Shown here: positions 1 through 60,545 of the stretch, in pieces
Layout: every line of letters starts with the position of its first letter
Numbering within the stretch: position 1 is the stretch's first letter
DNA from: a phage
Assembly (NCBI GenBank): GCA_019338205.1
Contig: GCA_019338205.1_4761.1
Length of the DNA: 64,000 nucleotides
Strand: one strand, 5' to 3'
Program-made: the position numbers and the translations under genes
The notes under the pieces: model-generated
What the model was told of the DNA's origin: nothing
The model's input: only the letters and a program-made list of their open reading frames with translations
Databases searched by the model: none

Positions 1-220
1 TGCAAGTTATACGATGATCATAATTAGAATAACTAAATTCAATACCCTGTTTCATCATCTCGTGCATTTCTTCGTATGTGTGCCATTGGTTATCATGTTT
101 ACAAAACCAATGAGTACCATAGAGTTTAGGATCTTGTGCACGTAGACCATAGTAATGCTTTTGCATTGGGAACTTAGCTTTATTCATTGTATAATGCAGT
201 TTAATATTTACGCGTGCCAT
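1..220 (-). CDS. hypothetical protein, N-terminal part only (ORF runs off window start)
   Basis: ATG at 218-220 on minus strand, open frame to position 1 (MARVNIKLHYTMNKAKF...); not in ORF track because no stop inside window. Confidence 0.3.
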   Translation of the reverse strand, partial: MARVNIKLHYTMNKAKFPMQKHYYGLRAQDPKLYGTHWFCKHDNQWHTYEEMHEMMKQGIEFSYSNYDHRITC

Positions 221-465
221 TTTCTAGTTCCCCACATACCGAAAGTTGGATTATACACAAAATAGATAGCTTCGTCGATAGTCTTGAATCGTTTAGTGTC
301 ATTCATGAAGTTGATACCCTCCCATAGTTCATCGGTGTAATCGGCTAGTGATGAATGAGTATGATCGATGATCTCTCCAATCTTTTCACCGTTCGCGATC
401 ACATCCCAACCGCAAGGGGATACCTGAATTGCTTCACAATTATCTGTAAATTTACGACGTGCCAT
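208..465 (-). CDS. hypothetical protein (85 aa) on a promoter cassette downstream of baseplate gene 8
   Basis: ORF track; SD GGAGGA about 6 nt before ATG; own TTGACA/TATAAT promoter just upstream. Confidence 0.5.
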   Translation of the reverse strand: MARRKFTDNCEAIQVSPCGWDVIANGEKIGEIIDHTHSSLADYTDELWEGINFMNDTKRFKTIDEAIYFVYNPTFGMWGTRKWHA

Positions 466-494
466 AATTTATCCTCCGTTGTTTAGATGTGTGT

Positions 495-522
495 ATTATA
501 CCTTACCAAATAAGATTGTCAA
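495..522 (-). promoter_or_regulatory. sigma70-like early-type promoter TTGACA-N16-TATAAT (minus strand)
   Basis: minus-strand TTGACA at 517-522 and TATAAT at 495-500, followed by SD and ATG of ORF 208-465. Confidence 0.5.
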
Positions 523-534
523 CACCAAAAATGG

Positions 535-559
535 AAAAAGCCAACTCTCTCGAATTGGC
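535..559 (-). terminator. putative intrinsic terminator after gene 8 (hairpin with flanking A/T runs)
   Basis: stem gccaa/ttggc (540-544 with 555-559) flanked by A5 and T4 runs. Confidence 0.4.
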
Positions 560-575
560 TTTTAAAATCATACAC

Positions 576-1571
576 TTAGAACTCAAACAATACAGAAACA
601 AGTTCTGTTTGATCTAATGACCGAACGATAGGTTGTCGGTTTTCCATGTAGATCATTTCGCCTGAGTGTGGCTCTAAGTCTTGCGGTCGGTACTTATCTT
701 TGACCGCTTTAACGTCTGGATCGCTAGGGCGTGCTTTCTTTTCCAATGGGTTAAGGATAATGCTTAACTGACGGAAACCAGTATTACCCACTAACGCGGT
801 AGTTGGGAATTGCGCAGAGTCCATATAAGCCTGAAAACGCAAAGTTACTACTTTCAGCCGATAAAGCAGATTATAGTCATTATACCAGGTGATCACATTG
901 TCATAGCCCCAACGCGCCGGATCTTGTCGCAGTTCATCGGGGAACGGTACAACAATATGTTCATTGGTGCAACGGTTGATCGCCGCATCAGGTGGAATTG
1001 TGTACAGATATTCCCAACGATACCCATCACCCATATCAATAGAATCGCCCTTTCCTACAGGTGGCGCAATTGATTCATGAGTAGGTGTCCACTTTCCGCC
1101 CAACTTCAAACACTCTACTTTAGCGTCAATGCTTGAAATCGAGCAGTAACCGCGATCAGGAACATCGGTTACGCGATACACCATCCAGCCGCTACCAACA
1201 TCAGTTCGGTTATATGGTGCTGAGTTTACGACAACAATGTCATTGATAAAGAACGTGCGCGGGTTATCCTGTCCGGTATCACCCCAGTCTTTACGAGGGA
1301 TAACCGCATCAAGAAGTGATTTGTTAATCTTAACCGCCCCCATCATATGGGTCCACATGTCAACAACACCAGCCGTTGAATCGGTCGGATAAGGTGGGGC
1401 AAAGCCCACCTCTTTTTCGTTTTCTGACCACGGCTCCGAACGTCCAAACGTTCCATAAATTGTAATTTGATTTGCTCCATCGCCTACAGAATTATAGAAA
1501 TTCAGAAGTTTTTCCGTTCTGAATTGACTAGTAATGATTGAGCGATAGATCACACTATTTTCATTAGCCAT
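576..1571 (-). CDS. 8: baseplate wedge protein gp8
   Basis: 331 aa versus T4 gp8 334 aa; position after gene 7 in conserved order 53-5-6-7-8; start overlaps gene 7 stop. Confidence 0.75.
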   Translation of the reverse strand: MANENSVIYRSIITSQFRTEKLLNFYNSVGDGANQITIYGTFGRSEPWSENEKEVGFAPPYPTDSTAGVVDMWTHMMGAVKINKSLLDAVIPRKDWGDTGQDNPRTFFINDIVVVNSAPYNRTDVGSGWMVYRVTDVPDRGYCSISSIDAKVECLKLGGKWTPTHESIAPPVGKGDSIDMGDGYRWEYLYTIPPDAAINRCTNEHIVVPFPDELRQDPARWGYDNVITWYNDYNLLYRLKVVTLRFQAYMDSAQFPTTALVGNTGFRQLSIILNPLEKKARPSDPDVKAVKDKYRPQDLEPHSGEMIYMENRQPIVRSLDQTELVSVLFEF

Positions 1572-4500
1572 TAATTTTCCTCTGTGTCGGATTCTTCGGA
1601 TCGCGTGGATTCCCTATATTATCCTTCAACCGTTTATCTACAAGTTCACGGAACATAGAGAATGTTACCGCCGACTGGTCAAACAGTGGACTCATTGCAA
1701 ATCTTCGTTCGCTTGCTTTAAGTCCGTGGAACAATTCGCTGTTCTCCTGATCATATTCAGGGGGAACCGGAAATTCTTCACCAATTAAAGGTGAAGTCAA
1801 ATATAATGCTTTTCCGGTAAGCGGGTCAATCTTAATATTTCCATCAACATCAAGATCAGCAACACGATCAGGATACACGCTAGGCAATCCGCTGTCAAAC
1901 TTATAATTTTTCAGAGATTGAATTATAGTCTCGGTGTGCTTCATGCTCAACCCGCTGTTAATGAACATCGTAAGCAGGGTAACACCGATAAACCCAAAGC
2001 CGACAGGATGAACGAATCGCATTACATCATTTGCATAGCGCGAAACTGGCAATGCGCTTTTAATCTTCATGGTGTATTGGCTTCGTGAGCGGTTGATATA
2101 GTCGATTGAACTACTCAACAACTCTTTACCACGCACACCAACAAGGATCATCCCTTCAAACGCTGTTTTCTCTGATTTGATCACTTGACCTTCTTCGAAC
2201 CGCCCGATCAGGTTATGAATGGTTACTCGCCAGCGTAGGCGACCACCTTCATATTCCCTTTCAAGATACGTCACGTTAGCCCGTCCGGTTGGAGTATAAA
2301 TCGTGCGACCTACGATATCCTCGTCAATGTTCGTTGAACTAACAACAATATCATACTCTAGTCCGGCTTGTGATTCAACCTCAATTTCCACATCTTCATT
2401 ATAAAGTAACTTAAACAAGAACTTATAAGAAGCCTCCACGCCCTTAGTGGAATAAAAATCTGATTTGCGGGATTCAAAGAATCTTACTACCGCATCTCGC
2501 TTGTTTTTATCTGCATAGATGTTTCGTTTGTTCATCTCTGACCAAAGATACTCATATGCATCTTGCTCGCGTGGATATTTGTTTTTAATCAGATTTTTTA
2601 GTTTATTATAATATGTTCCTGAACCATCACTTAAGAATTGCAGATAATATTCAGAGAATTTTCTGAAATTTTCGTTCTCAAGCAAAAAGCTATCCGGTGT
2701 CATCTTATTCAGTAAAGGCCGCAAATCTGGATCTTGCTCTCGATCGTAGTGAACCGGAACCCAGGGAACCTCTCGGACCTGATTTTGCAGTTCAGCAACA
2801 AATGCTACATTTGTAGGCTTCCAATATACACCAACCTGATCACGAACGCGATAGTTAAATTGATAGAATCCTATGATCTCTCCTGTGTTTTTATGGAACA
2901 TTACACCGGATGCATATTGTTTGAATCCTTCAAATTTAACATTGTTAAGATAACAGGTCACGGTCCCTTTATCATAAACTTCTCGGTTGACCCTATTTTG
3001 GTCAAGAATGCCAGATGTATCAACTTCTTGAGTGTAGATAACCTCTGGATAAACAACCAACGGGCGATTATCATTTGTGATCCACACACGGACACCGTTT
3101 CGACGCATCCATGTATAATCGGCCTCATTATAATACGCTTGCGGTCCTAACTCCCAAATACGCAAATCATCATAACTTGCTCTGAAAGTAGTTTGATGTA
3201 TTTTCTTATCAGTTAGATAAGTTGGCTCCTGAGAATATTTTACAGCTTCGCCCAATTCATATTTCGCGGCAGTTTCTGGATCAGGTAAAATGCTTTCGAA
3301 GTGATGATTATAATGGCTTATGAACACCTCATCACCATTGGTTGACATATTACTGAACCCATGCTGAATATATTCCCTTTCCTGCGGAGTGTTGCCAAAT
3401 ACTCTCTGAAAAGACAGACCATCACTCCCTATCAAGTATACACCCGCATCATCTGACGGAACAACGTTTTCTGGTTTAGTTGGATCTTGATAACGCTGTT
3501 TAACTTCACCAGTAACAAATACAAGCAATTTACCGTCGATCACATCCATTTTCTGAATGACAGCTTTATCATTTCCTGTTACTCGAATAACATCAGGATC
3601 GAATATTTTTTCGCCAAACGTAGGCGAACCCTGTACGGTATCAACTGGAGTATTCTTAAGACGAATCCGGCGAATAACATCCTTAGCACCAACCCACAAA
3701 TAGTCATCACTACATGCCATAGCTTCGGCGTATTTTGTGGTGTCCCCTGTTAATCTGGAAAATACACCAAAGACCTCAACGTCAAAGCCTAAATCGTTCT
3801 CGTCACCAACCTTTGCAAAAGTGATCGTATCATCACTAAATCGAACATCGTCCGCGCTCCATCGAGTATCGCTCGCTTGTCGTCCGTAAAAGATTCGATC
3901 ATATCCTAAAACGTAAGTAGTGGTTTTAGACTGATAAACGCATGTACGGGAAACCGGATTGCCTACACGGTCATTAAAAGCCTTGTATGCTTTCCATGAT
4001 TGGCCTTTATCGTTCGACACCTTCACAATCGGCTGGAACCGTTCGAAAAGGTACAAAACACCGTTCATTTCCGCTAACATAGTGCGGTTTATATCAGTAC
4101 AAACTTTTTCTATGTGGTCCTGTATTTCATGAAAGTTCTCATCAACTACAATGTAGTTTGAGATATTTGTCATGTTTGCATATTCAGGACTAAAGACAAA
4201 ATCTTCCTTCATCAATGATGCTTGAATCAGGTCAGTATTAAACTTGACATACTCTCGATTATCGTATGTAAATTTTTCCTTTATAAACTCGTTTGCAAGG
4301 TTGAACTCTCGCATCATAGAAAAATTATATGCGTTTGTTTTAAATGTCTGAAACTCTTCTGTCTCAACCCATTTACTTTGTTCAAATCCTTCTGCGGCTA
4401 CTGCTACACGAAACTTGTAATAATATTCTGGAAAAAGGTTTTTATCCTCAAACCAGTTTTGGTCGGCAGTATATCCCAGGTTTACCCAGCTTAACTCATC

Positions 4501-4650
4501 GACGGGGATGATCTCCCCGTCTCGTGTTCTGGTTTCGGCTAACTCCACAAAATAAAAGAAGTTTTCGCCTACGTCATCCCATGTGATATACGCCTGATTA
4601 GCAGACAATTTTTCTATTGTCAAGCTAGTTACACTAGGCGCTTTAATCAT
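1564..4650 (-). CDS. 7: baseplate wedge protein gp7
   Basis: 1028 aa versus T4 gp7 1032 aa; synteny between genes 6 and 8; overlapping stop/start. Confidence 0.8.
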   Translation of the reverse strand: MIKAPSVTSLTIEKLSANQAYITWDDVGENFFYFVELAETRTRDGEIIPVDELSWVNLGYTADQNWFEDKNLFPEYYYKFRVAVAAEGFEQSKWVETEEFQTFKTNAYNFSMMREFNLANEFIKEKFTYDNREYVKFNTDLIQASLMKEDFVFSPEYANMTNISNYIVVDENFHEIQDHIEKVCTDINRTMLAEMNGVLYLFERFQPIVKVSNDKGQSWKAYKAFNDRVGNPVSRTCVYQSKTTTYVLGYDRIFYGRQASDTRWSADDVRFSDDTITFAKVGDENDLGFDVEVFGVFSRLTGDTTKYAEAMACSDDYLWVGAKDVIRRIRLKNTPVDTVQGSPTFGEKIFDPDVIRVTGNDKAVIQKMDVIDGKLLVFVTGEVKQRYQDPTKPENVVPSDDAGVYLIGSDGLSFQRVFGNTPQEREYIQHGFSNMSTNGDEVFISHYNHHFESILPDPETAAKYELGEAVKYSQEPTYLTDKKIHQTTFRASYDDLRIWELGPQAYYNEADYTWMRRNGVRVWITNDNRPLVVYPEVIYTQEVDTSGILDQNRVNREVYDKGTVTCYLNNVKFEGFKQYASGVMFHKNTGEIIGFYQFNYRVRDQVGVYWKPTNVAFVAELQNQVREVPWVPVHYDREQDPDLRPLLNKMTPDSFLLENENFRKFSEYYLQFLSDGSGTYYNKLKNLIKNKYPREQDAYEYLWSEMNKRNIYADKNKRDAVVRFFESRKSDFYSTKGVEASYKFLFKLLYNEDVEIEVESQAGLEYDIVVSSTNIDEDIVGRTIYTPTGRANVTYLEREYEGGRLRWRVTIHNLIGRFEEGQVIKSEKTAFEGMILVGVRGKELLSSSIDYINRSRSQYTMKIKSALPVSRYANDVMRFVHPVGFGFIGVTLLTMFINSGLSMKHTETIIQSLKNYKFDSGLPSVYPDRVADLDVDGNIKIDPLTGKALYLTSPLIGEEFPVPPEYDQENSELFHGLKASERRFAMSPLFDQSAVTFSMFRELVDKRLKDNIGNPRDPKNPTQRKING

Positions 4651-15921: not shown

Positions 15922-15950
15922 CCCCGAAAATTTTTCGGGGTTTTTTGTTT
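15922..15950 (+). terminator. intrinsic terminator
   Basis: ccccgaaaa/ttttcgggg hairpin followed by T-run. Confidence 0.7.
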
Positions 15951-15957
15951 TTAGTTG

Positions 15958-15986
15958 TTGACAACCATAAACGACTATAGCATAAT
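15958..15986 (+). promoter_or_regulatory. early promoter cassette (PeSL-type) TTGACA-N17-CATAAT
   Basis: TTGACA 15958-15963, CATAAT 15981-15986, conserved leader catcgaaacgaaacacac and ggagaatcaaaATG. Confidence 0.6.
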
Positions 15987-16023
15987 GCACATATCGAAAC
16001 GAAACACACTTAGGAGAATCAAA

Positions 16024-17927: not shown

Positions 17928-17952
17928 GCCTAAAATTTTTTTAAAAAAGTTG

Positions 17953-17981
17953 TTGACACCAGATCCGGCCTATAGCATAAT
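17953..17981 (+). promoter_or_regulatory. early promoter cassette TTGACA-N17-CATAAT
   Basis: TTGACA 17953-17958, CATAAT 17976-17981, conserved leader. Confidence 0.6.
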
Positions 17982-18027
17982 ACACCCATCGAAACGAAAC
18001 ACACTTTCTTAAACGGAGAATCAAATT

Positions 18028-28875: not shown

Positions 28876-28898
28876 GCCATCCGAAAGGGTGGCTTTTT
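28876..28898 (+). terminator. intrinsic terminator
   Basis: gccatcc-gaaa-gggtggc hairpin plus TTTTT. Confidence 0.65.
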
Positions 28899-28910
28899 CG
28901 TTTTTATGTG

Positions 28911-28939
28911 TTGACAACCGGAATAGGGTATAGCATAAT
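28911..28939 (+). promoter_or_regulatory. early promoter cassette TTGACA-N17-CATAAT
   Basis: TTGACA 28911-28916, CATAAT 28934-28939, conserved leader. Confidence 0.6.
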
Positions 28940-28968
28940 GCACACATCGACAACAAAGGAGAATCAAA

Positions 28969-31284: not shown

Positions 31285-31317
31285 GGGCTATCCTTCGGGA
31301 TAGCCTTTTTGTTTTTT
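31285..31317 (+). terminator. intrinsic terminator
   Basis: ggctatcc-ttcg-ggatagcc hairpin plus T-run. Confidence 0.75.
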
Positions 31318-31322
31318 GGGTG

Positions 31323-31350
31323 TTGACAATGAAAATCATAGTGCTATAAT
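31323..31350 (+). promoter_or_regulatory. early promoter cassette TTGACA-N16-TATAAT
   Basis: TTGACA 31323-31328, TATAAT 31345-31350. Confidence 0.6.
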
Positions 31351-31379
31351 GCACACATACCAACTAAGGAGAATCAAAG

Positions 31380-42353: not shown

Positions 42354-42384
42354 GCCGATCCGAAAGGGTCGGCTTTTTCGTTTT
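42354..42384 (+). terminator. intrinsic terminator
   Basis: gccgatcc-gaaag-ggtcggc hairpin plus TTTTTCGTTTT. Confidence 0.7.
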
Positions 42385-42390
42385 GGGGTG

Positions 42391-42418
42391 TTGACAACCT
42401 GATTAGCTAATGTATAAT
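42391..42418 (+). promoter_or_regulatory. early promoter cassette TTGACA-N16-TATAAT
   Basis: TTGACA 42391-42396, TATAAT 42413-42418, leader tcacatcgaaaacaacgagagg. Confidence 0.6.
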
Positions 42419-42447
42419 GCTCACATCGAAAACAACGAGAGGACAAC

Positions 42448-46583: not shown

Positions 46584-46849
46584 TCGAGATATACGGTATA
46601 CCGAAAGAGGCTTATCATTGTTATGGTTGTATTAGTGCAATGAAGCTACTGGATGATCTGGGTATTCCGTATACACTTAAACCAGTATTCAAGCCGGTCG
46701 GGGTTGACATTATTCCCGACCGTGATATGATTGAAGAACTGGCGGGGAGGCTAAACTCAAAGAGCCTCCGGTTTGTATACCCCCAGATATTCATTGACAA
46801 CGAGCACATTGGAGGCTATAAAGAACTGAGGGCGATTTATGATTATTGA
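46580..46849 (+). CDS. nrdH: glutaredoxin-like protein NrdH
   Basis: CYGC active site; PQIFIDNEHIGGY glutaredoxin motif. Confidence 0.8.
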   Translation: MIEIYGIPKEAYHCYGCISAMKLLDDLGIPYTLKPVFKPVGVDIIPDRDMIEELAGRLNSKSLRFVYPQIFIDNEHIGGYKELRAIYDY

Positions 46850-52398: not shown

Positions 52399-54061
52399 AA
52401 CCTTGCGCTATCAAAATATAATGAGCGTTGGTGCTGAACCTGTAGAGATTCAGCTAGACGGATTCAAAAAGACACTAATCACTGGCGTTAACGGTGCTGG
52501 TAAATCAACAATGATCGAGGCGCTTTGCTTTGTGTTGTTCGGTAAACCGTTTCGTAGTATCAAGAAAGGCCAATTGATTAACAGCGTCAACAAAAAGAAA
52601 CTGTTAGTCGAAGTCTGGTTTGAACTGGACGGGAAAGAGTTTTATATCAAACGTGGTCAAAAGCCGGAAGTATTCGAAGTGCATCGCGACGGTCAAAAGA
52701 TCGACGAGAGCGCAAGCACCAAAGACTTTCAGGAATATTTTGAAGGTATCATAGGCATGAACCTAGCCAGCTTCAAACAGATCGTTGTTTTAGGCACTGC
52801 TGGTTATGTTCCGTTTATGAGTCTTCCGGCAGCGGGTCGCCGTAAACTGGTCGAGGATTTGCTTGATATTGCTACGCTAGGCGAAATGGATAAACTGAAT
52901 AAAGCGTATGTGCGCGAGATTACCCAGAATATCCAAATGCAGGAAATGAAAGCTAATCACGTTCAGCAACAAATCAACACTCATAAAAAGTACATAGAAG
53001 ACGCTAGCAAGGCGAGTGCCGAGAATCTCCAGCGTTTACAGAATATGTATGATAAAGAGGTGGAATCGGCTAAAGCATTTAAAGCCGAAGAAACTCGCTT
53101 GACCGATGAGCTATTGGCTGTTGTTATGCCGGAAGATCCTAGCGCGGCATTGGCTAAAATTAATACGGCTATCGCACAGATTGGTGCGCAGATCCAGAAC
53201 TTTGACCGTGTTATTCATATGCATGAGAAAGGAGGGATCTGTCCTACGTGCACACAACCGATCATTCAGGGTAATGATCAAGCGGTGCGCGAGCAAAAAG
53301 CACAAGCAGAACATAAGCTGTCTCTGATTGACGAGAAGCGCGTAGAATACGCAGAGAAAGCCAATTCTTTCCAGACAGCACAAACTAAGGTCTTGGAAAT
53401 TAAACGCGCTATAGAGTCACAGAGAGCTAATTTAACGGCATCTGTAGGTCGGGCTAAACAGATCCAGAAAGCAATTCAGGAATTACAAAAAGAAAGGGTT
53501 GACAATTCCGAAGAACTTGCTAAACTGGAACACGAACTGGTAGAGATCACTAATGAAAAATCAAAACTAGTTCTTGAAAAATATCACCGTGGATTTGTAA
53601 CAGAAATGTTGAAGGATTCCGGTGTTAAGGCGTCTATCGTCAAGAAATATATTCCATATTTCAATGATCGGATTGCGTATTATCTTGATATCATGGAAGC
53701 GGATTATATCTTTACGCTAGATGAAGAGTTTAACGAAACAATCAAATCACGGGGGCGTGAATCGTTTTCGTATACATCGTTCAGTCAAGGCGAAAAGGCA
53801 CGTATTGACCTTGCGATGCTCTTTACATGGCGTGATGTTGCTGGTAAAGTATCTGGTACTAATATTTCTTTGTTGGTACTCGACGAAATTTATGATGGGG
53901 CTACTGACGTTCAGGGCGTAAAAGCACTTGATTCCATCATTGACAAGTTAGATGATAACGTGTATATTATCAGCCATCGTGACCATAACCCTGATGATTT
54001 TAGCCGTCATCTCAAGATGGTTAAACGTGGGCGATTCACTGAAATGAATGTTAACATTTGA
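52379..54061 (+). CDS. 46: recombination endonuclease subunit gp46 (Rad50/SbcC-like ATPase)
   Basis: Walker A GVNGAGKST, CPTC zinc hook, Walker B LLVLDE; about 560 aa. Confidence 0.93.
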   Translation: MAKLNFKTLRYQNIMSVGAEPVEIQLDGFKKTLITGVNGAGKSTMIEALCFVLFGKPFRSIKKGQLINSVNKKKLLVEVWFELDGKEFYIKRGQKPEVFEVHRDGQKIDESASTKDFQEYFEGIIGMNLASFKQIVVLGTAGYVPFMSLPAAGRRKLVEDLLDIATLGEMDKLNKAYVREITQNIQMQEMKANHVQQQINTHKKYIEDASKASAENLQRLQNMYDKEVESAKAFKAEETRLTDELLAVVMPEDPSAALAKINTAIAQIGAQIQNFDRVIHMHEKGGICPTCTQPIIQGNDQAVREQKAQAEHKLSLIDEKRVEYAEKANSFQTAQTKVLEIKRAIESQRANLTASVGRAKQIQKAIQELQKERVDNSEELAKLEHELVEITNEKSKLVLEKYHRGFVTEMLKDSGVKASIVKKYIPYFNDRIAYYLDIMEADYIFTLDEEFNETIKSRGRESFSYTSFSQGEKARIDLAMLFTWRDVAGKVSGTNISLLVLDEIYDGATDVQGVKALDSIIDKLDDNVYIISHRDHNPDDFSRHLKMVKRGRFTEMNVNI

Positions 54062-57849: not shown

Positions 57850-60528
57850 ATGTATTTTCTGTCATGTGAGCGAGTAGGTGATAAGATCTACGAGCGTTAT
57901 ATTGATTATGCTGGACAAGAACAAGAGCGTTACGTTGAATATACGCCAACATTATTTCATCATGCCGCGCCTGGTATGGTTACGAATTATAAAGATATCT
58001 ATGGCAAGCCTTGCATTGCTAAAAAATTCCCATCTATGAACGAGGCCAACAAATGGCGTAAAAAGATGGGAGAAATGGGGCAAGAGGCACTAGGGATGGA
58101 TGATTTTATCATCTCCTATCTGTCCGATACATATAAAGGCGAGATTCGATATGACCGAAATAAAATCCGTGTAGCGTGGGTTGATATTGAGGTCACTGCC
58201 CCAGAATTTCCTAAACCAGAAGAAGCGAAATATCCTATCGATGCAATTACGCATTATGATTCCGTACATGATCGTTTCTTTGTATTTGATTTGAAAGGAA
58301 AAAACGGTGAAATCTGGGAAGCAAGCAAGTCTATTCTTCGACCTGATATTGTGGAGCGCGTTGTTTATAACGTTTATGACACAGAAGATGAATTGCTGTT
58401 AGAATACATCCGATTCTTTGAGGAAAACCGACCCGTTGGTTTCACTGGCTGGAACACAGAAACATTCGATATTCCATATATCATTAAGCGTATCAGCAAT
58501 AAGTTTGGAAGTCGAACGGCAAACCGTTTAAGCCCGTGCGGTAAGATTAAATCCCGAATCTCACAGGATGATTTTGGCAACGAGCGTGAAGCATTTACGA
58601 TCATGGGGATCGAAAGCCTTGATTATATTGACCTGTACAAGAAATTTAGCTTTACGACTCAACCAACATATGCGTTAGATTATGTTGCTGAATATGAGAC
58701 AGGAATCGGTAAGGTTGATTATGATGGTCCGTTAAAGAAATTGCGTGATGACAATCATCAACTTTACATCGATTATAACATCGGCGACGTTGATCGTGTG
58801 CTGGCGATTGATAAAAAGCGTGGATTTATCGATCTTGTGTATAGTCTATGTTTCTATGCAAAGATTAAATTTAACCATGTTTATAACCCGATGAAAGTAT
58901 GGGATGCTATCATCTTCGGATCTCTGAAAGCTGAGGGTAAAGTAGTACCGGAAAATAAGATACAGCCTAAGCAGACTTATCCGGGCGCATTCGTAAAAGA
59001 ACCTGTGCCGAATGCTTACCGTTGGATGATGAGCTTTGACTTAACAAGTCTGTACCCATCTATTATTCGACAGGTTAATATTTCTCCTGAAACAATCGCT
59101 GGATCTTTTGATGCTGCACCGATGCACGAGTATATCAATAAAACTGCACCACGTCCGAGTGATGAGTATTCTTGCTCGCCTAACGGATGGATGTATAGAA
59201 AAGATATTCATGGTATCGTACCGATTGAGATTAAAAAGGTATTCGATCAGCGTAAGCAGTACAAAAACATGATGTTGGCATGTGATCGCAATGCTGAACT
59301 ATGTAAAGCGATTCTACACGATGAAAATCATGTTTATGGGGGAACCATTAGCTATAGCGTTGAAGTGCGTCACGACTTTGATGAAGCGTTTAAATCGATG
59401 CTTTCTGAATTAAGTAAAGATGCCTTAGAGAAATTGCTGGAAGAATGTAAAGACGAGTCGATCTTGTGCAATACAAACCAGCTTTCTCGAAAAGTTTTGA
59501 TTAACTCCCTTTATGGTGCGTTGGGGAATCCTAAATTCCGTTTTTATGATCTCCGTAACGCTAGTGCGATCACCTTGTTTGGTCAGCTTGCAATTCAGTG
59601 GATTGAGCGTAAGATTAACGAATACTTAAACGAGCTTTGCGGAACAACCGATTTTGCATATGTTCGTTATTGTGATACTGACTCCGTTTATGTGCTGGTT
59701 AACAATGTTGTTGATAAGGTTGGCGGGGAAGACCGTTTCGACGATACCGAAAAACTTGTTGACTTCCTTGATAATTTCGGTAAACATCGAATGGAACCGA
59801 TTATCGACAAAGGATATCGCGAGTTATGCGAGTACATGAACAACTACGAGCACTTGATGTTTATGGACCGCGAGGCAATTGCTGGTCCTCCGTTGAAATC
59901 TGCGGGTATCGGTGGATTCTGGACTGGTAAAAAGCGTTATGCTCTTAATGTTTGGGATATGGAAGGAACGCGCTTTGCTGAACCTAAGCTAAAAATCATG
60001 GGCTTGGAAACGCAACGTAGCTCTACACCTAAAGCATGTCAGAAATCACTGAAAGAATGTATTCGCCGTATGTTGCAGGAAGGGGAAGAATCGCTACAGA
60101 AATACTACGGTATTTTTGAGCAAGAATTTAGAAAACTTGACTATCTTGAGGTTGCTGCGGTATCATCTGCAAACAACCTACAGAAATACAGCGATTCAAA
60201 CGGGTATCCGATTAAGGGTTGTCCGTATGCGGTTAAGAGTGTATTGTGTTATAATCGTAATGCTCGAAAATTCGGACTAGATCCGATTCGTGAAGGCGAG
60301 AAGGTTATGATTGTACCGCTTAAAGATCGAAATCCGTTTGGAGAAATCTGTTTTGGTTGGTTGTCTGGTACTCGTATTCCTCCAGAAATTGAATCAGAGG
60401 TGTTGAAGTGGTTGGACTGGCCTTTGTTGTTTAATAAGACTTTCGTCAAACCACTGGAGAACATTACCACGGCTGCAAAGCTGCAATATGAAAAGGTGGC
60501 ATCGCTCACGGACCTGTTTGACATTTAA
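57850..60528 (+). CDS. 43: DNA polymerase gp43 (family B)
   Basis: N-terminus and exo/pol motifs (FDIEV, YNIGDVD, SLYPSII, YCDTDS) align with T4 gp43; SD AAGGAG. Confidence 0.97.
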   Translation: MYFLSCERVGDKIYERYIDYAGQEQERYVEYTPTLFHHAAPGMVTNYKDIYGKPCIAKKFPSMNEANKWRKKMGEMGQEALGMDDFIISYLSDTYKGEIRYDRNKIRVAWVDIEVTAPEFPKPEEAKYPIDAITHYDSVHDRFFVFDLKGKNGEIWEASKSILRPDIVERVVYNVYDTEDELLLEYIRFFEENRPVGFTGWNTETFDIPYIIKRISNKFGSRTANRLSPCGKIKSRISQDDFGNEREAFTIMGIESLDYIDLYKKFSFTTQPTYALDYVAEYETGIGKVDYDGPLKKLRDDNHQLYIDYNIGDVDRVLAIDKKRGFIDLVYSLCFYAKIKFNHVYNPMKVWDAIIFGSLKAEGKVVPENKIQPKQTYPGAFVKEPVPNAYRWMMSFDLTSLYPSIIRQVNISPETIAGSFDAAPMHEYINKTAPRPSDEYSCSPNGWMYRKDIHGIVPIEIKKVFDQRKQYKNMMLACDRNAELCKAILHDENHVYGGTISYSVEVRHDFDEAFKSMLSELSKDALEKLLEECKDESILCNTNQLSRKVLINSLYGALGNPKFRFYDLRNASAITLFGQLAIQWIERKINEYLNELCGTTDFAYVRYCDTDSVYVLVNNVVDKVGGEDRFDDTEKLVDFLDNFGKHRMEPIIDKGYRELCEYMNNYEHLMFMDREAIAGPPLKSAGIGGFWTGKKRYALNVWDMEGTRFAEPKLKIMGLETQRSSTPKACQKSLKECIRRMLQEGEESLQKYYGIFEQEFRKLDYLEVAAVSSANNLQKYSDSNGYPIKGCPYAVKSVLCYNRNARKFGLDPIREGEKVMIVPLKDRNPFGEICFGWLSGTRIPPEIESEVLKWLDWPLLFNKTFVKPLENITTAAKLQYEKVASLTDLFDI

Positions 60529-60545
60529 GATAAAGTGTGTATAAT
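60518..60545 (+). promoter_or_regulatory. sigma70-like promoter TTGACA-N16-TATAAT overlapping gene 43 stop
   Basis: TTGACA 60518-60523, TATAAT 60540-60545, followed by short hairpin. Confidence 0.5.

What the first reader, a model, noticed from the sequence alone, without database searches (positions are those of the whole stretch)
208..576. Early-type promoter cassette inside the late baseplate operon
Downstream of gene 8 (minus strand) there is a terminator-like hairpin, then TTGACA-N16-TATAAT, an SD and an 85-aa ORF, followed by a second ORF that runs off the window. T4 has gene 9 directly after gene 8, so this looks like a mobile cassette inserted between them.
Basis: partly seen in the sequence, partly recalled or inferred. 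Interest (0 to 1): 0.45.

Follow-up and report, generated by a model that had tools for sequence, protein, structure and literature searches.

The report
Known early promoter–terminator cassette (PeSL)
This is a real but already published feature of RB49-like coliphages: a terminator-plus-strong-promoter unit (a "PeSL") heading a small early accessory operon (two unknown small proteins and a methyltransferase) that sits between baseplate genes 8 and 9.

Summary
The window is a Krischvirus (RB49/phi1/JSE group, ~98% identity). After gene 8 on the minus strand come a stable hairpin with a T-run (563..536), a perfect TTGACA-N16-TATAAT (522..495), GGAGG, an 85-aa ORF (465..208) and a second ORF from 220 that runs off the window.

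In phi1 that second ORF (110 aa) is followed by a 279-aa methyltransferase, a second terminator, a late promoter and gene 9. Gene 9 follows gene 8 directly in four other Straboviridae genera, so this is a ~1.6-kb insertion. Counts from separate searches suggest every Krischvirus record (~59) carries it.

The promoter unit belongs to the repeated "promoter-early stem-loop" (PeSL) family of Arbiol et al. 2010. A profile built from 13 other copies in the window hits it at E=9e-11. Nolan et al. 2006 already list this promoter in RB49 (Pe:73830, their only early promoter on the late strand) and both terminators.

ORF140 is a real gene (dN/dS 0.13–0.24) of unknown function. It and ORF142 also occur, adjacent, in Vequintavirus FV3 behind a similar terminator–promoter. 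Early expression of this copy is inferred, not measured.

Verdict: real, ordinary, already known.

The parts
576..1571 (-). Gene 8 (gp8 baseplate wedge subunit, 331 aa), the upstream late gene; its stop codon is at 578..576.
   Evidence: ORF list. Annotated as gp8 in phi1 and RB49. 99% identical in Krischvirus records.
526..563 (-). Stem-loop part of the PeSL: an intrinsic-terminator-like hairpin (12-bp stem at 563..536, GAGA loop) followed by a T-rich tail.
   Evidence: Terminator scan. RNA fold dG -17.3, z -4.2. Invariant in six Krischvirus genomes. Listed by TransTerm as '8-->RB49ORF140w' in Nolan 2006, Additional File 6.
495..522 (-). Sigma-70 early promoter: -35 TTGACA (522..517), 16-nt spacer, -10 TATAAT (500..495). 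The transcription start is inferred near 488.
   Evidence: 12/12 match. PeSL-profile hit at E=8.6e-11. Corresponds to RB49 Pe:73830 in Nolan 2006, Additional File 3.
466..575 (-). The whole PeSL unit, from the gene 8 stop to the ORF140 start codon: hairpin, T-rich tract, GTG-TTGACAA, TATAAT-ACACACATC-AAAC leader, and SD GGAGG at 477..473.
   Evidence: Alignment with 13 other window copies. nhmmer profile hit. Definition of the family in PMC2839356.
208..465 (-). ORF140 (85 aa): a small accessory protein of unknown function and the first gene of the early operon.
   Evidence: ORF list. phrog_16603, unknown function. dN/dS 0.13-0.24 within the genus. Homologues in Vequintavirus FV3 and in two unrelated phage contigs. 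AlphaFold2 pLDDT 85, beta-sheet plus C-terminal helix, with no informative fold match.
1..220 (-). 5' part of ORF142 (110 aa in phi1), second gene of the operon. Its ATG at 220..218 overlaps the ORF140 stop by 13 nt, and the ORF continues beyond the window.
   Evidence: Sequence. Full ORF in phi1, L001 11784-12116. phrog_12630, unknown function. Homologues in roughly 50 non-Krischvirus records, the listed ones being Vequintavirus or similarly sized myoviruses.

Best explanation
The feature is one copy of the PeSL (promoter-early stem-loop) family of RB49-like phages. It heads a three-gene early accessory operon, moron-like in layout, inserted between baseplate genes 8 and 9.

Proposed mechanism:
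1. The hairpin just after gene 8 ends the late transcript of genes 53-8 and blocks any other upstream transcription.
2. The consensus sigma-70 promoter behind it is read by unmodified host RNA polymerase right after infection.
3. The resulting mRNA carries ORF140 (85 aa), ORF142 (110 aa) and ORF143 (279 aa), joined by overlapping stop and start codons. ORF143 is an NPPF-motif amino-methyltransferase, most probably acting on DNA adenine.
4. A second hairpin after ORF143 ends this unit.
5. Gene 9 restarts from its own late promoter (TATAAATA).

The payload is accessory, most plausibly for host takeover or anti-restriction.

Shown here: the anatomy, family membership by sequence, the insertion relative to other genera, conservation across the genus, and coding constraint on ORF140.

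Inferred: early timing, terminator efficiency, the methyltransferase's substrate, the roles of ORF140 and ORF142, and whether PeSL-type recombination was how the cassette arrived.
For: - Anatomy.
- Perfect promoters: 7 in the window against 0.06 expected.
- Family membership: it shares GTG-TTGACAA...TATAAT-RCACACATC-AAAC...GGAG with 13 other intergenic units, and a profile built without it scores E=8.6e-11 over its full length.
- Family definition: PMC2839356 defines PeSLs in phi1 and RB49. It reports promoter and terminator activity for other copies, and says a few lie in virion modules next to genes of unknown function.
- Prior prediction: Nolan 2006 lists Pe:73830 (+ strand), terminators on both sides of the cassette, and late promoter Pl:75319 before gene 9 in RB49.
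- Cassette content in phi1 and RB49. Right-hand terminator dG -15.9.
- Genes 8 and 9 are adjacent in four other genera.
- Distribution: separate searches each return ~59 Krischvirus-level records for gp8 (>=95%), ORF140 (>=90%) and the methyltransferase (>=90%).
- The hairpin and -10 are invariant and most changes lie in the spacer.
- ORF140 dN/dS is 0.13-0.24.
- Methyltransferase assignment: Pfam MTS and Eco57I, PHROG 'DNA methyltransferase', PADLOC mad2 and type II MTases.
- Homologues of the methyltransferase lie in the early gene 41-61 region of KP27 and at prophage edges in Citrobacter and Salmonella.
Against: - No transcript data exist for this copy. The literature found gives class-level evidence only: 5'-end mapping and reporter assays on other copies.
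- The right end of the cassette is a terminator plus a late promoter, not a second PeSL. The profile finds only one hit in the phi1 locus, so the two-PeSL mini-circle model does not fit literally.
- The cassette looks fixed across the genus, so no current mobility is seen.
- Its GC content (39.1%) lies within the range of the late region (41.1 +/- 1.6%), so composition gives no sign of foreign origin.
- The methyltransferase's substrate is uncertain. NCBIfam's best hits, all far below cut-off, are to PrmC, RsmC and L3 glutamine methyltransferases.
- HPLC/MS found no modified nucleosides in Krischvirus TB34 DNA (PMC13390438). That study focused on cytosine modifications.
- Nolan 2006 also lists a weak late promoter (Pl:74451) just before ORF143, so the methyltransferase may also be made late.
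Confidence: 0.85

Rival explanations
1. The regulatory unit is real, but it is a static terminator-plus-promoter pair. The cassette arrived once by illegitimate or microhomology recombination, and its PeSL-like sequence played no part in moving it.
For: - Only the left end is a PeSL by profile.
- The cassette looks fixed at one site in ~59 Krischvirus records.
- No long terminal repeats flank it. There is only a weak 20-nt, 75% direct repeat, plus similar AAGCC...GGCTTTTT hairpins at both ends.
- In Vequintavirus the ORF140 indel lies between two short ...ACGGA...AAAATG start contexts, not between promoter units.
Against: - The unit shares about 75 nt of extended similarity with the other PeSLs. 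That is the substrate Arbiol et al. proposed for homologous exchange.
- The ORF140-ORF142 pair in FV3 also sits directly behind a terminator-promoter unit.
- phi1 and RB49 differ by a local divergence island within the cassette, which shows continuing recombination there.
Confidence: 0.3
2. The small ORFs are late or structural genes, expressed by read-through from gene 8. The sigma-70 match is then not used as an early promoter.
For: - The cassette points the same way as the late genes.
- Intrinsic terminators are rarely 100% efficient.
- Nolan 2006 lists a weak late promoter inside the cassette (Pl:74451).
Against: - There is no TATAAATA upstream of ORF140.
- A strong hairpin separates it from gene 8.
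- The promoter is a perfect consensus and a full-length member of the early-promoter family.
- The genes are absent from the four other Straboviridae genera checked, which build the same baseplate.
- ORF140 carries an 11-bp frameshifting deletion in the RB49 reference record.
- One of the three products is a methyltransferase, not a structural protein.
Confidence: 0.05
3. The cassette is an autonomous selfish element of the homing-endonuclease or transposon type.
For: T4-type genomes carry many homing-endonuclease genes. A segC gene lies about 7.6 kb downstream in phi1.
Against: - None of the three proteins has an endonuclease, integrase or transposase domain.
- No terminal inverted repeats or target-site duplication are present.
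- No presence/absence polymorphism shows up among ~59 genomes.
Confidence: 0.03

Closest known systems
PeSL (promoter-early stem-loop) cassettes of coliphages phi1 and RB49 (Arbiol et al. 2010, PMC2839356; Comeau et al. 2014, PMC4122927)
   Same: Same phage group and same composite layout: upstream stop codon, T-rich tract, stem-loop, consensus sigma-70 promoter, SD and start codon of a gene of unknown function. It also shares extended sequence with the other copies. The stem-loop lies upstream of the -35, which is one of the five described arrangements.
   Different: It lies in the virion (late) module rather than a hyperplastic region, and it points in the late direction. It heads three genes rather than one ORFan. 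The far end of the cassette is not a second PeSL. I could not check whether this copy is on their map, because figures and supplements are not held.
Predicted early promoter Pe:73830 and the flanking TransTerm terminators of RB49 (Nolan et al. 2006, PMC1524935, Additional Files 3, 5 and 6)
   Same: It is the same locus in the reference phage: promoter 73830-73879 between gene 8 (ends 73792) and ORF140 (starts 73902), terminators '8-->ORF140w' and 'ORF143w-->9', and late promoter Pl:75319 before gene 9.
   Different: In the window the -35 and -10 are both perfect. The spacer differs from RB49's by a few bases.
Morons of lambdoid phages: a gene with its own promoter and terminator inserted between two late genes (from my own knowledge of Juhala/Hendrix et al. 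2000; not checked here)
   Same: It is an autonomous transcription unit with a promoter in front and a terminator behind. It sits between two genes that are adjacent in relatives and carries accessory cargo.
   Different: It is in a lytic T4-type phage, so there is no expression from a prophage. Its composition does not differ from its surroundings. It has three genes.
The gene 8|9 junction of T4-type phages (RB32)
   Same: A terminator hairpin followed by a TATAAATA late promoter precedes gene 9, as at the right end of the Krischvirus cassette.
   Different: The RB32 gap is 63 bp and holds no genes and no sigma-70 promoter.

Membership tests
PeSL (Arbiol et al. 2010) | Sequence matching the E. 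coli sigma-70 consensus (-35 and -10). | tested here: met
   TTGACA-16-TATAAT, 12 of 12.
PeSL (Arbiol et al. 2010) | A stable stem-loop within or next to the promoter, in one of five positions, able to act as a terminator or attenuator. | tested here: met
   12-bp stem at 563..536 upstream of the -35, with a T-run. dG -17.3, z -4.2. Termination activity itself was not tested.
PeSL (Arbiol et al. 2010) | AT-rich tract upstream of the -35. The unit is intergenic, running from the upstream stop codon to the SD and start codon of the downstream gene. | tested here: met
   The unit spans 575..466 between the gene 8 stop and the ORF140 ATG. It has a T-rich tract at 535..523 and GGAGG at 477..473.
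PeSL (Arbiol et al. 2010) | Repeated motif: sequence conservation with the other copies in the genome over roughly 100 bp. | tested here: met
   nhmmer profile from 13 other window copies gives E=8.6e-11 and 37 bits, covering profile positions 4-79. Alignment.
PeSL (Arbiol et al. 2010) | Placed immediately upstream of an ORFan or a gene of unknown function. | tested here: met
   ORF140 has no Pfam or NCBIfam family and falls in a PHROG of unknown function.
PeSL (Arbiol et al. 2010) | Measured promoter and terminator activity. | not testable with these tools
   The paper tested only other copies (193/192, 206/205, 211/210).
PeSL-mediated mobile module (mini-circle model) | The module is flanked by PeSLs on both sides and is present or absent between close relatives. 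| tested here: not met
   The phi1 locus has one profile hit only, at the left end. The right end is a terminator plus a late promoter. The cassette appears present in all ~59 Krischvirus records.
Moron-type insertion | Own promoter and terminator, inserted between genes that are adjacent in related phages. | tested here: met
   Promoter in front and terminator behind. Genes 8 and 9 are adjacent in four other genera.
Moron-type insertion | Base composition different from the surrounding genome. | tested here: not met
   Cassette GC is 39.1% against 41.1 +/- 1.6% for windows of the same size in the late region.
Homing-endonuclease or transposon cassette | Encodes an endonuclease, transposase or integrase, and has terminal repeats or a target-site duplication. 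| tested here: not met
   No such domains. No terminal repeats.
N6-adenine DNA methyltransferase (for ORF143, outside the window) | SAM-binding motif I followed by motif IV (D/N)PP(Y/F), and DNA as the substrate. | tested here: inconclusive
   Motifs VLDLCAGIGRLS and NPPF are present. The protein hits Pfam MTS and Eco57I, a PHROG DNA methyltransferase family, and PADLOC mad2. The same motifs occur in PrmC- and RsmC-type enzymes, which are NCBIfam's best hits, all below cut-off. The substrate is untested.

The most novel reading that the evidence does not exclude
The three genes may form one early counter-defence module in which ORF140 and/or ORF142 act together with the methyltransferase, for example as a specificity or activating partner or as an inhibitor of a host restriction or defence system. 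Alternatively the methyltransferase may not modify DNA at all and may instead modify a host translation component (PrmC- or RsmC-like chemistry) as a takeover step. The data do not exclude either reading: the genes are translationally coupled, conserved across the whole genus, and of unknown function.
Probability: 0.15. Interest if true: 0.45.

Novelty: already known. Interest (0 to 1): 0.15.

Why it matters
It matters little as a discovery. The locus illustrates how T4-type phages hold accessory early genes inside an otherwise rigid late structural module: the unit is insulated by a terminator on each side and the next late gene gets its own promoter.

Three small points may be useful.
- In the published RB49 list this is the only early promoter that points in the late direction.
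- The ORF140-ORF142 pair is shared with the unrelated Vequintavirus FV3, behind a similar terminator-promoter unit.
- The cargo is three uncharacterised genes kept in apparently every Krischvirus, which makes them reasonable candidates for anti-defence screens in therapeutic RB49-like phages.

Tried and rejected
- ORF140 function from sequence: no Pfam, NCBIfam or PADLOC hits. The 5.8-billion-protein search found one cluster.
- The exhaustive HMMER search found only two real distant homologues, P0008 and P0010 (60 aa). It also found a 39-aa fragment of the same protein (P0007) and two repeat-protein matches that I judge spurious (P0009, P0011).
- Context of the distant ORF140 homologues: they sit in arrays of small ORFs in unrelated phage contigs. 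A methyltransferase lies a few kb away in both, but methyltransferases are too common in phages for that to mean much.
- Rfam scan of positions 1-1200: one hit, far below its gathering score (BTnc231, 24 against 80 bits). I treat it as chance.
- Terminal repeats around the cassette: nothing convincing.
- Composition: no anomaly.
- Literature: Desplats et al. 2002, which mapped RB49 early 5' ends, is not held. The supplements of Arbiol 2010 are not held. No Krischvirus transcriptome paper was found.

Full report
**What the window is.** Positions 1-3000 match about 59 Krischvirus genomes (RB49, phi1, JSE and relatives) at 97-99% identity. The late baseplate genes lie on the minus strand: gene 7 at 4650..1564 and gene 8 at 1571..576.

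**Checking the observation.** Reading the minus strand downstream of the gene 8 stop codon:
- A 12-bp hairpin AAAAGCCAATTC-GAGA-GAGTTGGCTTTT at 563..536, followed by a T-rich tail.
- TTGACA (522..517), a 16-nt spacer, TATAAT (500..495).
- GGAGG at 477..473, then ATG at 465.
- An 85-aa ORF ending at 208.
- A second ORF whose ATG (220) overlaps the first ORF's end and which runs off the window.

As RNA the hairpin folds at -17.3 kcal/mol, with z = -4.2 and no shuffle doing as well. The promoter is the only 12/12 match in the first 8 kb. The whole window has 7 perfect TTGACA-N16-18-TATAAT sites against 0.06 expected.

**What lies beyond the window.** I used the annotated phi1 genome (locus L001) as the extension. 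The order there is:
1. gene 8
2. hairpin and promoter
3. ORF140 (85 aa, identical to the window's ORF)
4. ORF142 (110 aa)
5. ORF143 (279 aa)
6. a second hairpin (dG -15.9)
7. a TATAAATA late promoter
8. gene 9

The three ORFs are joined by overlapping stop and start codons. ORF143 has SAM-binding motif I and an NPPF motif IV. It hits Pfam MTS and Eco57I, a PHROG family named DNA methyltransferase, and PADLOC methyltransferase models. NCBIfam's best hits, all far below cut-off, are to PrmC- and RsmC-type enzymes, so its substrate is not settled.

**Is it an insertion?** Gene 9 follows gene 8 after 9-63 bp in Tulanevirus 60AhydR15PP, Tequatrovirus RB32, Pseudotevenvirus Lw1 and the Slopekvirus-like Klebsiella phage Roth27. 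The ~1.6-kb block is therefore specific to Krischvirus.

It also looks universal there. Separate searches give gp8 at >=95% identity in 59 records, ORF140 at >=90% in 59, and the methyltransferase at >=90% in 59. I did not match these lists record by record.

In RB32 the 63-bp gap already holds a terminator hairpin and TATAAATA. At least in T4-type phages, then, the site is a boundary between late transcription units.

**What the promoter unit is.** All other strong sigma-70 sites of the window that sit in front of genes are on the plus strand, the early direction. They share more than the hexamers with this one. Several also have an upstream AAGCC...GGCTTTTT-type hairpin. The shared sequence runs GTG-TTGACAA...TATAAT-RCACACATC-AAAC...GGAG. 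An nhmmer profile built from 13 of those units, leaving this one out, hits 544..470(-) at E=8.6e-11 over its full length. That is the only minus-strand hit.

This is the PeSL (promoter-early stem-loop) family that Arbiol et al. (PMC2839356) described for phi1 and RB49:
- They found about 50 copies per genome.
- Each combines a consensus sigma-70 promoter, an AT-rich tract and a stem-loop.
- Most lie in hyperplastic regions in front of ORFans, with 'a few' in the replication and virion modules next to genes of unknown function.
- Promoter and terminator activity was shown for other copies.

The exact locus is also listed in Nolan et al. 2006 (PMC1524935). Their supplements give early promoter Pe:73830 (73830-73879, + strand) between RB49 gene 8 and ORF140. 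They also give TransTerm terminators '8-->RB49ORF140w' and 'RB49ORF143w-->9', and late promoter Pl:75319 in front of gene 9. Of their 51 predicted RB49 early promoters, this is the only one on the late-gene strand.

**Conservation.** In six Krischvirus genomes the hairpin and the -10 are invariant. The -35 is TTGACA in five and TTTACA with a 17-nt spacer in phi1. Most changes fall in the spacer, the two positions after the -10, and a few bases between the hairpin and the -35. That pattern fits a working promoter.

**The ORFs.** ORF140 is under purifying selection: dN/dS is 0.13-0.24 against SFHK24, JK32 and Brandy. Against FV3, synonymous sites are saturated while dN is 0.16.

ORF140 belongs to a very small family:
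- one cluster in the 5.8-billion-protein search;
- two 60-aa distant homologues (about 48% identity) found by exhaustive HMMER, each lying among small ORFs in an unrelated phage contig.

A model built from a four-sequence alignment (pLDDT 85) shows a small beta-sheet with a C-terminal helix. No fold match is informative. ORF142 is likewise unknown.

**Evidence on mobility.** ORF140 and ORF142 occur side by side, in the same order, in Vequintavirus FV3, at 70% and 60% amino-acid identity. They are again preceded there by a hairpin and TTGACA-17-TATTCT, and no methyltransferase follows.

Only three non-Krischvirus records have ORF140, the two listed being FV3 and HMD-6. Roughly 50 have ORF142. 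In Vequintavirus MaxBurger the same terminator-promoter-SD is followed directly by the ORF142 homologue. The ORF140 homologue is thus a clean ~243-bp indel between two ...ACGGA...AAAATG start contexts.

The methyltransferase has a different distribution:
- 45-50% identical copies in other T4-type phages; in KP27 the copy lies in the early gene 41-61 region;
- 53-61% identical copies at prophage edges in Citrobacter and Salmonella.

The cassette is therefore composite and its parts have moved between phage types. Against active mobility, the cassette as a whole looks fixed in Krischvirus. It has no endonuclease or transposase domain, no terminal repeats, no unusual composition, and a PeSL at one end only.

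**Mechanism and confidence.** I put 0.85 on this being a PeSL-headed early accessory operon, insulated by terminators on both sides, with gene 9 restarted from its own late promoter.

Shown: the anatomy, family membership, the insertion, conservation, and coding constraint.

Inferred: early timing (class-level evidence only), terminator efficiency, the methyltransferase's target, and any counter-defence role.

One cautionary note: HPLC/MS found no modified nucleosides in Krischvirus TB34 DNA (PMC13390438). That study was aimed at cytosine modifications.

**Novelty.** Already known. The promoter and terminators were predicted in 2006, and the element class was described and tested in 2010. Interest is low (0.15).

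Noticed in passing
window 15937-57844, + strand (for example 15937-16011, 17932-18009, 28890-28966, 31301-31376, 42369-42443): At least 13 further PeSL-type promoter units lie on the opposite (early) strand, several with the same upstream AAGCC...GGCTTTTT-type hairpin. The copy at 544..470 is the only one on the minus strand.
   Followed up: partly
L001 11690-12050 (phi1; 3' end of ORF140 and most of ORF142), corresponding to window ~1-310: phi1 and RB49 are 98-100% identical across genes 8 and 9 but only 58-87% identical here. ORF142 exists as two alleles about 73% identical in protein, which points to a recombinational replacement inside the cassette.
   Followed up: partly
L008 2501-2750 (RB49 NC_005066) compared with L016 154-411 (RB49 assembly OZ035808): The RB49 reference record has an 11-bp deletion that splits ORF140 into 'ORF140' and 'ORF141'. 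A newer RB49 assembly has the intact 85-aa ORF. This is either an old sequencing error or a stock mutation showing the gene is dispensable.
   Followed up: yes
L002 3755-4258 (FV3 ORF023): FV3 ORF023 is annotated as 167 aa and overlaps a terminator and a sigma-70 promoter. The homology and the promoter-SD layout indicate that the real gene is the 85-aa ORF starting at L002 4001.
   Followed up: partly
window 465, window 220, and L001 12116: All three cassette genes begin with ATGGCACG (Met-Ala-Arg). AATGGCAC occurs only 4 times in the 64-kb window (1.9 expected), so this is not the phage's usual start context. Gene 9 starts with ATGGCACA. The cause is unknown.
   Followed up: partly
L001 11411-11470 and 12941-12985: Both ends of the cassette read 'TTGTTTGA....TAA' followed by an AAGCC...GGCTTTTT hairpin (20 nt at 75% identity, plus similar hairpins). 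This could be a footprint of recombination at a terminator, or it could be chance.
   Followed up: no
L017-L022 (Citrobacter and Salmonella contigs), gene at 6001-6717/6726: The closest cellular homologues of the cassette's methyltransferase (53-61% identity, about 238 aa) sit at prophage edges beside host genes (yliH/bssR, mipA-gapA), like cargo genes.
   Followed up: partly
window 60518-60545 (+), and several 11/12 sites such as 46704-46731 and 53940-53968: Some consensus or near-consensus sigma-70 sites lack the PeSL flanks and gave no PeSL-profile hit. From their flanking sequence they may lie inside coding sequence. Whether they are internal promoters was not examined.
   Followed up: no
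literature (PMC13390438): Krischvirus phages TB34 and SAP are 99.96% identical, yet SAP DNA carries glucosylated hydroxymethyl-cytosine-type modifications and TB34 DNA does not. No known synthesis genes are present. The authors leave this unexplained, and it is unrelated to this locus as far as I can tell.
   Followed up: no
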